In this document: positions 52,200 through 52,695 of the stretch, one piece after another | How the letters are laid out: each line of letters opens with the position of its first letter | How positions within the stretch are numbered: position 1 is the stretch's first letter | DNA from: Escherichia coli | GTDB taxonomy: Bacteria > Pseudomonadota > Gammaproteobacteria > Enterobacterales > Enterobacteriaceae | Assembly: GCF_003018235.1 (NCBI RefSeq) | Contig: NZ_CP027437.1 | Reading direction: 5' to 3' (one strand) | DNA: 64,000 bases | Position numbers and translations under genes: made by a program | The notes under the pieces: generated by a model | The model's input: the letters and a program-made list of their open reading frames with translations, nothing else | Told to the model about the DNA's origin: nothing | The model's database searches: none

Positions 52200-52503
52200 A
52201 CACATAACGCCATTGTGCGCACTGTTGTGGTCCGCCGAAGCCAGTGAGAGATGACAGAGCAGCATGAGACAGCGCAACGCGCCTCCTGAAAGACCGCCTT
52301 TTAGCGGGCAGTCATCGAGACGAACGACGCAAGACGTGAGTCGCACAGGCGTTGATGTGGTCAGTTGATGAAATTGATGGCTTACAGCGTTTATGACTGG
52401 CGTTAACTGGTGTGGCTTTCTGGCTGTTTTTTATCAGATGTGATCGCAGTGCGTATAAGATATATTATGTTAAATATGGTGGGTTTTTACGTTACCCCGT
52501 CAT

Positions 52504-52695
52504 ATGCTAACACTGCCGCACTTCCAGTTTATCTACGCGTTAATGGGTGCTGAAAGGATCCTGTTCTCCGTCGATTATCCCTATCAGACCCTGGACGGTG
52601 TAAAAACCTTTATAGACAGTCTGCCCGTCAACAAGGCTGAAAAAGAGGCCATCGCGTTTCGCAATGCAGAACGTTTACTGGGCATCACGGTTTAG
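52504..52695 (+). pseudogene. C-terminal fragment of an amidohydrolase-superfamily (Amidohydro_2-like) protein
   Basis: 63-aa ORF ...ERILFSVDYPYQTLDG... resembling the C-terminal metal-binding strand of such enzymes, with no upstream coding continuation. Confidence 0.5.

What the first reader, a model, noticed from the sequence alone, without database searches (positions are those of the whole stretch)
52200..52695. Amidohydrolase C-terminal remnant marks the left scar of the redox island
A 63-aa ORF carrying only the C-terminal part of an Amidohydro_2-type enzyme sits right after the hipA terminator, with about 300 bp of non-coding DNA before it. This suggests the island was once larger, with a first amidohydrolase gene lost by deletion at this junction.
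Basis: inference. Interest (0 to 1): 0.3.

Follow-up and report, generated by a model that had tools for sequence, protein, structure and literature searches.

The report
Dead gene stub beside phage-occupied dif
The 63-codon ORF is a real but dead tail of an amidohydrolase gene left by a 3.9-kb deletion; the DNA in front of it is not a hipA terminator and spacer but the chromosome's dif site, split by a 320-bp relic of a filamentous phage.

Summary
The ORF at 52504-52695 is confirmed as the C-terminal 63 codons of an Amidohydro_2 enzyme (Pfam E 1.1e-7; 59/63 identical to intact 349-aa orthologues).

A deletion did occur. About 465 complete E. coli genomes carry 3.9 kb more here: lysR, a small ORF, DJ-1/PfpI, an aldo-keto reductase and the 5' part of the amidohydrolase. 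So the amidohydrolase was the fifth gene lost, not the first. It was already a pseudogene, with a 356-bp internal deletion in the E. coli copies examined and a 2-bp frameshift that the window shares. Intact versions occur in an 11-gene operon in Rahnella, Pantoea, Rouxiella and Serratia.

The "hipA terminator plus 300 bp non-coding DNA" is misread. hipA is followed by dif, the XerCD chromosome-dimer resolution site. In this window dif is split by about 320 bp of filamentous-phage DNA of the CTX/CUS-1/YpfPhi type. This DNA has a forked attP hairpin (z -8.9) and a conserved intergenic segment, and it ends in a hybrid dif with central region GATATA. That hybrid occurs in only 2 of 5426 genomes. 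The deletion starts 10 nt beyond it.

One observation is unexplained. Two other E. coli lineages have different deletions ending at the same nucleotide (G|TTTACGTTACC).

The finding itself is ordinary; its context is moderately interesting.

The parts
50674..52053 (+). hipA (longest ORF; the annotated start in relatives corresponds to about 50731), preceded by hipB. Context gene only.
52130..52143 (+). Left part of chromosomal dif: XerC-binding arm GGTGCGCATAA plus TGT. Identity to canonical dif stops after 52143.
   Evidence: dif sequence from PMC2731167
52131..52222 (+). Hairpin B, a CTX-type forked attP hairpin.
   Evidence: ssDNA fold -38.1 kcal/mol, z -8.9. It is 95-98% identical to the hairpin of dif-integrated prophages in E. 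coli AF60 and cM8a and occurs in 7 IMG/VR viral contigs.
52144..52464 (+). Phage-derived (IMEX) DNA inserted in dif, about 320 bp with no gene. The crossover points are ambiguous within 52131-52144 on the left and 52461-52465 on the right.
52232..52388 (+). Segment X, a conserved non-coding intergenic segment of the phage family. It is 81-88% identical to the prophages and is also found next to Xer-type sites on plasmids. Function unknown, and no significant ssDNA structure.
52448..52475 (+). Hybrid dif (attR): AGTGCGTATAA-GATATA-TTATGTTAAAT. The XerC arm and central region come from phage hairpin A and the XerD arm from dif. It matches canonical dif at 24 of 28 positions and is the only dif-like 28-mer in the window.
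   Evidence: The same joint lies at the right end of the tandem array in cM8a (L006 19875-19901). It is present in 2 of 5426 genomes.
52476..52485 (+). Ten nt of native dif-flanking sequence (ATGGTGGGTT) retained between dif and the deletion junction.
52485..52486 (.). Junction of the 3.9-kb deletion (L001 4081|8001, ambiguity of 1 nt within a T run).
52486..52695 (+). Amidohydrolase (PF04909) pseudogene remnant: the last 210 nt, corresponding to nt 839-1050 of a 1050-nt gene. It includes the inherited 2-bp frameshift at 52502|52503 and the 63-aa ORF at 52504-52695, which starts at internal Met287.
52846..56100 (+). Surviving distal genes of the operon: Flavodoxin_2 NAD(P)H oxidoreductase (52846-53418), aldo-keto reductase (53421-54440), ABM monooxygenase (54556-55281) and CMD-family protein (55297-56100). 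They are now separated from lysR and the operon's 5' end.

Best explanation
The region is the chromosome terminus site dif and its right-hand neighbourhood. It was reshaped by three separate events.

(1) Gene decay. An 11-gene, LysR-controlled operon lies directly to the right of dif in about 9% of E. coli. It encodes lysR, a small ORF, DJ-1/PfpI, AKR, amidohydrolase, flavodoxin-like reductase, AKR, DUF1330, a second reductase, ABM and CMD. Its amidohydrolase gene decayed in E. coli through a 356-bp internal deletion between TCCTGAC repeats. One haplotype then gained a 2-bp frameshift.

(2) Deletion. In the lineage of this window, a 3.9-kb illegitimate deletion with no microhomology removed everything from 10 nt right of dif to codon 280 of that pseudogene. 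This left a 210-nt tail. An internal Met codon in the tail happens to open a 63-codon ORF. The stub is inert: 20% of a TIM-barrel cannot fold or bind metal.

(3) Phage integration. A filamentous-phage-type element that exploits XerCD (CTX/CUS-1/YpfPhi type) integrated into dif. Its single-stranded hairpin mimics a dif duplex. XerC exchanges one strand pair and replication fixes the insertion. About 320 bp of it remains: hairpin B, segment X and the XerC arm and central region of a second hairpin, A. The cell's only dif-like site in this window is now a hybrid with central region GATATA.

Shown: the sequence relationships, junctions, hairpin energetics and frequencies. Inferred: the Xer mechanism, by analogy with CTXphi; that the relic arose by loss of the element's genes; the order of events; and that the hybrid dif still resolves dimers.
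For: - Pfam hit and identity of the ORF to intact orthologues.
- Collinearity with E. coli 118UI apart from a 3.9-kb gap and a roughly 320-bp insertion.
- Canonical dif lies 76 nt after hipA in L001 and L002 and is replaced in the window by a split site.
- Hairpin B folds at -38.1 kcal/mol, z -8.9, with a bulged central region between the XerC-like and XerD-like arms. Hairpin A in cM8a folds likewise, z -10.6.
- The same sequences lie in the intergenic region of tandem filamentous prophages, or satellites, integrated at dif next to hipA in AF60 and cM8a. These encode Rep, ssDNA-binding protein, Zot and secretin. The attL and attR joints in cM8a are identical to those of the window.
- Hairpin B occurs in 7 viral contigs of 4.7-9.6 kb, and one of them has the X-A-B order.
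- The literature places CUS-1 and YpfPhi in the CTX type, with inverted XerC/XerD sites, integration at dif and tandem arrays.
- The pseudogene lesions are shared by the window and by intact-island E. coli.
- The operon with an intact gene is present in five other genera.
Against: - The right joint carries the phage's central region (GATATA). Simple XerC-only exchange would predict the dif central region TGTATA. The two joints also derive from two different hairpins, B on the left and A on the right. The simple CTX model therefore does not fully account for the structure, and an extra step must be assumed, such as a XerD-side exchange or a deletion between A and the regenerated dif.
- No complete E. 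coli genome has the B-to-X joint or the window's deletion. The history therefore rests on one sequence.
- Segment X has no detectable structure or assigned function.
- Nothing shows that the hybrid dif is functional.
Confidence: 0.85

Rival explanations
1. A native hipA terminator is followed by about 300 bp of spacer, and a single deletion removed one amidohydrolase gene that formed the left end of the island.
For: A deletion junction does lie at 52485|52486, and the ORF is an amidohydrolase tail.
Against: - The hairpin and spacer are absent from E. coli genomes with an unoccupied dif and are phage-derived.
- Four more genes were lost in the same deletion.
- The gene was already broken.
Confidence: 0.03
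2. The 320-bp element is not a decayed prophage. It is a complete miniature, gene-less satellite carrying only cis-acting sites, namely the attP hairpin and segment X. It would be replicated, packaged and integrated in trans by CUS-1-like helper phages, comparable to the miniphages of f1.
For: - It retains exactly the non-coding module shared by two phage types with different Rep proteins.
- Its attL and attR joints are clean.
- X-plus-Xer-site modules also occur on plasmids.
Against: - No second copy of the B-to-X joint was found in 5426 E. coli genomes or in IMG/VR.
- The end of B and the sequence preceding X share a short repeat (GCA[G]CTGTTG) that could have mediated an internal deletion.
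- The element lacks the rest of hairpin A and the A-B spacer, so it cannot regenerate a free circle with both hairpins.
Confidence: 0.15
3. The 63-aa ORF is a functional small protein that has been retained by selection.
For: - It is an intact ORF.
- PGAP annotates the identical ORF as a protein (WP_001469139.1) in 118UI.
Against: - It starts at an internal Met of the parent enzyme.
- It exists only because of a 2-bp frameshift.
- No sigma-70-like promoter was found nearby.
- It covers only profile positions 227-289 of the TIM-barrel domain.
- Alleles without the frameshift read straight through it.
Confidence: 0.03
4. The deletion was not random illegitimate recombination. It was produced by a site-specific break-and-join activity, or a replication block, acting at G|TTTACGTTACC inside the pseudogene, with variable partners to the left.
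For: - Three unrelated alleles share this right end to the nucleotide but have different left ends. The window's left end is 10 nt from dif. ST2747's is inside lysR. CFSAN018748's is inside the DJ-1/PfpI gene.
- The flanks differ by 1.2-1.5% between these strains and carry no shared private SNPs.
- By my own rough estimate (not a tool result), chance coincidence is of the order of 1e-7.
Against: - No element, repeat, hairpin, Ter-like, dif-like or phage-origin-like motif was found at the site.
- No genome has an insertion there: 465 of 469 complete genomes and 12 of 12 metagenome contigs are continuous.
- The sample is only three alleles.
Confidence: 0.55

Closest known systems
CTX-type IMEXs: integrative mobile elements exploiting Xer (CTXphi and RS1 of Vibrio cholerae, CUS-1phi of E. 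coli O18:K1:H7, YpfPhi of Yersinia pestis)
   Same: - Integration is at dif.
- Inverted XerC/XerD-like arms fold into a bulged hairpin in the coding-sense strand.
- attL is the dif XerC arm joined to the whole hairpin.
- The first three central nucleotides (TGT) of hairpin B match dif.
- Relatives form tandem arrays at the same locus.
   Different: - There are no genes at all; only about 320 bp remain.
- The family member it resembles most (cM8a type) has two hairpins, A and B, with different central regions (GAT... and TGT...).
- attR keeps the phage's central region, giving a dif with GATATA rather than regenerating TGTATA.
Pseudogene remnants of horizontally acquired operons in E. coli (PGAP 'amidohydrolase family protein' fragments WP_001322416.1 and WP_001469139.1)
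   Same: The 63-aa ORF is the same ORF as the one PGAP annotates in strain 118UI (L001 8019-8210).
   Different: In the window the upstream fragments and four neighbouring genes have also been deleted.
Amidohydro_2 / PF04909 metal-dependent TIM-barrel hydrolases and decarboxylases
   Same: Clear sequence homology over the last 63 residues. The intact orthologues are 344-349 aa.
   Different: Only 20% of the gene is present. The N-terminal metal-binding part is missing, so this is not an enzyme.
Miniphages (defective interfering genomes) of f1/M13, which keep only the intergenic region (own knowledge, not tested)
   Same: A gene-less unit made only of a filamentous phage's non-coding control region.
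   Different: Miniphages are free replicons seen in laboratory lysates. This is a single chromosomal copy, and nothing shows it to be mobile.
Deletion hot spots at arrested replication forks (Tus/Ter; Bierne, Ehrlich and Michel 1991; own knowledge)
   Same: The deletions are nested, with one end fixed to the nucleotide, variable other ends and little or no homology. They lie in the terminus region.
   Different: No Ter-like sequence was seen by eye at the fixed end (no tool scan was run), and the island is absent from K-12, where the Ter sites were mapped.

Membership tests
Amidohydro_2 (PF04909) enzyme | Significant sequence match to the family profile | tested here: met
   E 1.1e-7 and 32.3 bits against a cut-off of 26.4. 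59/63 identical to intact orthologues.
Amidohydro_2 (PF04909) enzyme | Complete TIM-barrel domain of about 290 profile positions, including the N-terminal metal ligands | tested here: not met
   Only profile positions 227-289 are present. Gene nt 1-838 of 1050 are absent.
CTX-type IMEX | Located at the chromosomal dif site, flanked by dif halves | tested here: met
   The dif XerC arm lies at 52130-52140 and the dif XerD arm at 52465-52475. Canonical dif occupies the same position in L001 and L002.
CTX-type IMEX | Two inverted XerC/XerD-like site halves that fold into a forked or bulged hairpin in the packaged strand | tested here: met
   Positions 52131-52222 fold at -38.1 kcal/mol, z -8.9, with a 6-nt bulge between the arms. 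The polarity is the same as that of the phage genes in relatives.
CTX-type IMEX | The right junction is the phage XerC arm followed by the dif central region and the dif XerD arm (XerC-only exchange) | tested here: not met
   The right junction has the phage (hairpin A) central region GATATA, not TGTATA. AF60-type prophages do meet this feature.
CTX-type IMEX | Carries replication, regulation or morphogenesis genes (phage or satellite) | tested here: not met
   No gene lies between 52144 and 52464. Relatives carry Rep, SSB, Zot and secretin genes.
CTX-type IMEX | Integration depends on XerC catalysis and host replication | not testable with these tools
   Inferred from CTXphi (PMC3442271).
Functional dif site | 28-bp site with an 11-bp XerC arm, a 6-bp central region and an 11-bp XerD arm | tested here: inconclusive
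   Positions 52448-52475 have the correct architecture and an exact XerD arm, but two changes in the XerC arm and two in the central region. The same site is the only candidate in two complete genomes. Activity was not tested.
Intrinsic terminator of hipA | A hairpin with a T-run that is native to the hipA 3' region | tested here: not met
   It is absent downstream of hipA in L001 and L002. It was not called by the terminator scan because the loop is 11 nt. The sequence belongs to phage hairpin B.

The most novel reading that the evidence does not exclude
Position G|TTTACGTTACC of the amidohydrolase pseudogene (window 52485|52486) is a natural, nucleotide-precise deletion hot spot about 4 kb from dif. 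Some site-specific nicking-and-joining or fork-arrest activity not yet identified has at least three times joined this exact nucleotide to different upstream partners in unrelated E. coli lineages. A second, independent possibility is that two-hairpin IMEXs rewrite the central region of the host's dif from TGTATA to GATATA, and so change which Xer-exploiting elements can integrate afterwards.
Probability: 0.3. Interest if true: 0.65.

Novelty: new member of a known kind. Interest (0 to 1): 0.35.

Why it matters
The stub itself does not matter: it is a dead fragment of an already dead gene. Three things do matter.

1. An annotator reading this locus as "terminator plus spacer plus small ORF" would miss the chromosome's dimer-resolution site. 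In this strain that site is a rare hybrid, seen in 2 of 5426 complete genomes, left by a filamentous-phage-type element.

2. The locus shows that E. coli IMEXs of the CUS-1/YpfPhi family include two-hairpin forms whose integration changes the dif central region. This predicts altered susceptibility to later IMEX integration.

3. Three unrelated deletions end at the same nucleotide. If a wider survey confirms this, it points to an unrecognised site-specific source of genome instability next to the terminus.

The deletion also separates four redox genes from their LysR regulator and from the operon's 5' end. This should change or abolish their expression.

Tried and rejected
- **Rfam scan of 51900-52900.** Only sub-threshold hits driven by the hairpin (ar14, ar35, miRNA models), with E 0.03 or above and far below gathering scores. 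No known RNA family.
- **Promoter and terminator scan.** No sigma-70-like promoter. The hairpin was not called.
- **Segment X as a single-strand origin or ssDNA promoter.** No excess structure on either strand, z 0.05-0.8. The plasmid contexts were uninformative, although X lies near Xer-type sites there. I therefore make no functional claim for X.
- **Phage GenBank collection.** No match to the element.
- **IMG/VR.** No match to the B-to-X joint or to hairpin A by exact pattern. Hairpin B was found.
- **Explanations tested for the shared deletion endpoint, none supported.**
  - Microhomology at the junctions.
  - Local hairpins at the right end or the left ends.
  - A repeat of the motif elsewhere in the locus.
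  - A similar motif in the prophages, as a pseudo-origin for the phage Rep.
  - An element inserted at the site in other genomes: 465 of 469 genomes and 12 of 12 metagenome contigs are continuous.
  - Common descent: no shared private SNPs and 1.2-1.5% divergence.
  - Checked by eye only and not matching: the Ter consensus, dif/Xer arms, integron G|TTRRRY core, IS608 TTAC target, Tn3-type inverted repeat, and common restriction sites.
- **GC-skew profile.** Compatible with a switch near 52-56 kb, but the window is too short on the right side to be decisive.

Full report
**1. The observation**

The + strand carries an ATG ORF of 63 codons at 52504-52695. Against Pfam it matches only Amidohydro_2 (PF04909), with E 1.1e-7 and 32.3 bits against a cut-off of 26.4. 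The match covers only the last 63 of the 289 profile positions.

The ORF is 59/63 identical to residues 287-349 of intact 349-aa orthologues, and its ATG is their internal Met287. DNA homology to the gene starts 18 nt upstream, at 52486. The core observation, an amidohydrolase C-terminal remnant, is therefore real.

**2. What lies to the left in other genomes**

The neighbourhood is E. coli: an autotransporter pseudogene, hipB, hipA, then flavodoxin-like NAD(P)H oxidoreductase, aldo-keto reductase, ABM and CMD genes.

No complete E. coli genome among 5426 has the window's arrangement across 52000-52900. About 469 genomes carry the island, and 465 of them are continuous across the point where the window breaks.

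In E. coli 118UI (L001), hipA is followed by:
- lysR on the opposite strand;
- a 101-aa ORF;
- a DJ-1/PfpI amidotransferase-like gene;
- an aldo-keto reductase;
- amidohydrolase fragments;
- the genes present in the window.

The window equals L001 minus L001 4082-8000, plus about 320 bp that L001 lacks. A 3.9-kb deletion therefore did occur, but it removed five genes or gene fragments. The amidohydrolase was the innermost of these, not the first.

**3. The gene was already dead**

I aligned an intact orthologue (L007), three intact-island E. coli alleles and the window. Two lesions stand out:
- The E. coli copies examined (L001, L033) lack gene nt 149-504. This is a 356-bp deletion flanked by a TCCTGAC repeat.
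- The commoner E. coli haplotype also lacks two bases, GG, at nt 856-857.

The window carries this 2-bp frameshift at 52502|52503. The window therefore descends from an allele that was already a pseudogene. The 63-codon ORF exists only because the frameshift brings Met287 into an open frame.

**4.

Full-length genes do exist in relatives at the homologous position. A Logan contig (L007) encodes a 349-aa protein 97% identical to the conceptual E. coli protein. It lies inside an 11-gene cluster: lysR | ORF101, DJ-1/PfpI, AKR, Amidohydro_2, Flavodoxin_2, AKR, DUF1330, Flavodoxin_2, ABM, CMD.

The same cluster, complete or nearly so, with an intact amidohydrolase is present in Rahnella rivi, two Pantoea species, Rouxiella aceris and two Serratia species. 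The E. coli island is a decayed copy that also lacks DUF1330 and the second Flavodoxin_2 gene.

**5. The "terminator" and the "300 bp of non-coding DNA"**

In L001 and L002 hipA is followed after 76 nt by GGTGCGCATAATGTATATTATGTTAAAT. This is the canonical E. coli dif site, located at K-12 position 1588788 (PMC2731167).

In the window the match to dif stops after GGTGCGCATAATGT, at 52143. It resumes at 52465 with TTATGTTAAAT. The only dif-like 28-mer in the window is AGTGCGTATAA-GATATA-TTATGTTAAAT at 52448-52475, which has 4 mismatches. About 320 bp is inserted between the two halves.

The first 92 nt of the insert (52131-52222) form a long imperfect palindrome. As single-stranded DNA it folds at -38.1 kcal/mol (z -8.9; none of 200 shuffles fold as well). 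The stem pairs a XerC-like arm and a XerD-like arm, separated by a 6-nt bulge.

**6. Origin of the insert**

The insert matches, at 81-98% identity, the non-coding region of elements integrated at dif next to hipA in other E. coli:
- Strain AF60 has two tandem copies of a 7.8-kb filamentous prophage encoding Rep, Zot and a secretin.
- Strain cM8a has four tandem copies of a 3.66-kb satellite-like unit encoding a gpII/X-type Rep and an ssDNA-binding protein.

Hairpin B also occurs in seven IMG/VR viral contigs of 4.7-9.6 kb, and one of them shows the order X, hairpin A, hairpin B.

The literature places CUS-1 of E. coli K1 and YpfPhi of Y. pestis in the CTX type of Xer-exploiting elements. These have inverted XerC/XerD sites that fold in the single-stranded genome. 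XerC exchanges one strand pair with dif, replication completes the integration, and tandem arrays are typical (PMC4266046, PMC4246890, PMC3442271).

The window's left joint, the dif XerC arm followed by the whole of hairpin B, is what that model predicts.

**7. Where the simple model fails**

In AF60 the right end of the array regenerates canonical dif. In the window and in cM8a the right joint instead uses the XerC arm and the central region of a second hairpin, A. Hairpin A folds at -40.9 kcal/mol with z -10.6.

The result is a dif with central GATATA. This hybrid occurs in only 2 of 5426 complete genomes.

Hairpin B begins its central region with TGT, as dif does. Hairpin A begins with GAT, as the hybrid does. 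I infer, without proof, two steps:
- Such two-hairpin elements first enter canonical dif through B.
- A secondary event, a XerD-side exchange or a deletion between A and the regenerated dif, then creates the GATATA site, into which further copies can enter through A.

This accounts for the cM8a array. It is not shown.

The window's element has no body. Hairpin B is joined to segment X 2 nt after its end. A short repeat, GCA[G]CTGTTG, occurs at the end of B and before X in the full elements, so an internal deletion is the simplest origin. A gene-less mobilisable mini-satellite is not excluded.

**8. The deletion junction and an unexplained coincidence**

The junction reads dif, ATGGTGGGTT | TTTACGTTACC. 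There is no microhomology.

Two other alleles among the complete genomes break at the same right-hand nucleotide, L001 8000|8001, but have different left ends:
- ST2747 (three assemblies) joins it to the middle of lysR.
- CFSAN018748 joins it to the DJ-1/PfpI gene.

The three backgrounds differ by 1.2-1.5% in flanking DNA and share no private SNPs.

I found no repeat, hairpin or phage-origin-like motif at the site, and checks by eye showed no dif-like or Ter-like motif. No genome or metagenome contig has an element inserted there.

Nested deletions with one fixed end usually indicate a site-specific break, a one-ended element or a fork barrier. None could be identified here.

**9. Further context**

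K-12-like strains lack the whole island, and their sequence diverges from island-bearing strains immediately after the dif XerD arm. Other small variants exist in the dif-to-lysR spacer. The DNA next to dif is therefore a recurrent site of rearrangement.

The window's deletion leaves the four distal genes without lysR and without the operon's 5' end. No sigma-70-like promoter was detected in 51950-52900. Their expression is therefore doubtful, but this is an inference.

**10. Verdict**

The finding as stated is an ordinary pseudogene stub at a deletion junction.

The more informative result is the re-reading of the adjacent 450 nt as dif occupied by a gene-less relic of a CUS-1/YpfPhi-type element, which leaves a rare hybrid dif. 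The recurrent deletion endpoint adds a second point of interest.

I rate the novelty as a new member of a known kind, and the overall interest at 0.35.

Noticed in passing
window 52485|52486; L002 6830|6831; L020 7000|7001: Three unrelated deletion alleles share the right endpoint G|TTTACGTTACC to the nucleotide but have different left endpoints. They are the window, E. coli ST2747 and E. coli CFSAN018748. No microhomology and no mobile element is present, and no cause was identified.
   Followed up: partly
L006 (E. coli cM8a) 5404-19901; L039 (IMG/VR contig) 4369-4859: A 3.66-kb satellite-like IMEX encodes a gpII/X-type Rep, SSB and two hypothetical proteins, with no Zot or secretin. It carries two paralogous forked hairpins, A and B, whose central regions differ (GAT... 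and TGT...). It forms a 4-copy array at dif, and the right end of the array is an A/dif hybrid.
   Followed up: partly
L005 (E. coli AF60) 3600-6370: Between hipA and the tandem filamentous prophages lies a further insert. It carries a SIR2-family gene and a transposase pseudogene, and it is bounded by another degenerate hairpin with Xer-like arms (GTTCGCATAA / TTATGCTAAA). This may be a different IMEX carrying a defence-type gene.
   Followed up: no
L019 4001-4446 and L034 4154-5629 (IncF plasmids): Homologues of segment X and of hairpin B lie next to dif-like sites on plasmids; roughly 480 plasmid records match overall, most of them conjugative. This suggests IMEX relics at plasmid Xer sites.
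   Followed up: partly
window about 50180 (autotransporter ORF 46651-50202): The ECSE_1600-family autotransporter gene upstream of hipB lacks about 1.8 kb relative to ST2747 (L002 2365-4180). In the window it is therefore a truncated pseudogene.
   Followed up: no
window 52475/52476 compared with L006 19901: Strains without the island (K-12-like) diverge from island-bearing strains exactly at the outer edge of the dif XerD arm. Relative to the window they lack 52476 to about 56824 and about 57025-60305 (fimA, chaperone and the usher 5' part).
   Followed up: partly
L007 3029-3063: The unidentified organism with the intact 11-gene operon (Logan SRR30549933) also has a dif-like sequence about 3.8 kb to the left of the operon. 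The operon's proximity to dif is therefore not peculiar to E. coli.
   Followed up: no
L033 (E. coli DA33137) 5729-6292: A second island haplotype, about 95% identical and present in roughly 150 genomes, lacks the 2-bp frameshift. It shares many SNPs with the intact orthologue and appears to be the older E. coli allele. CFSAN018748 is a mosaic of the two haplotypes.
   Followed up: partly
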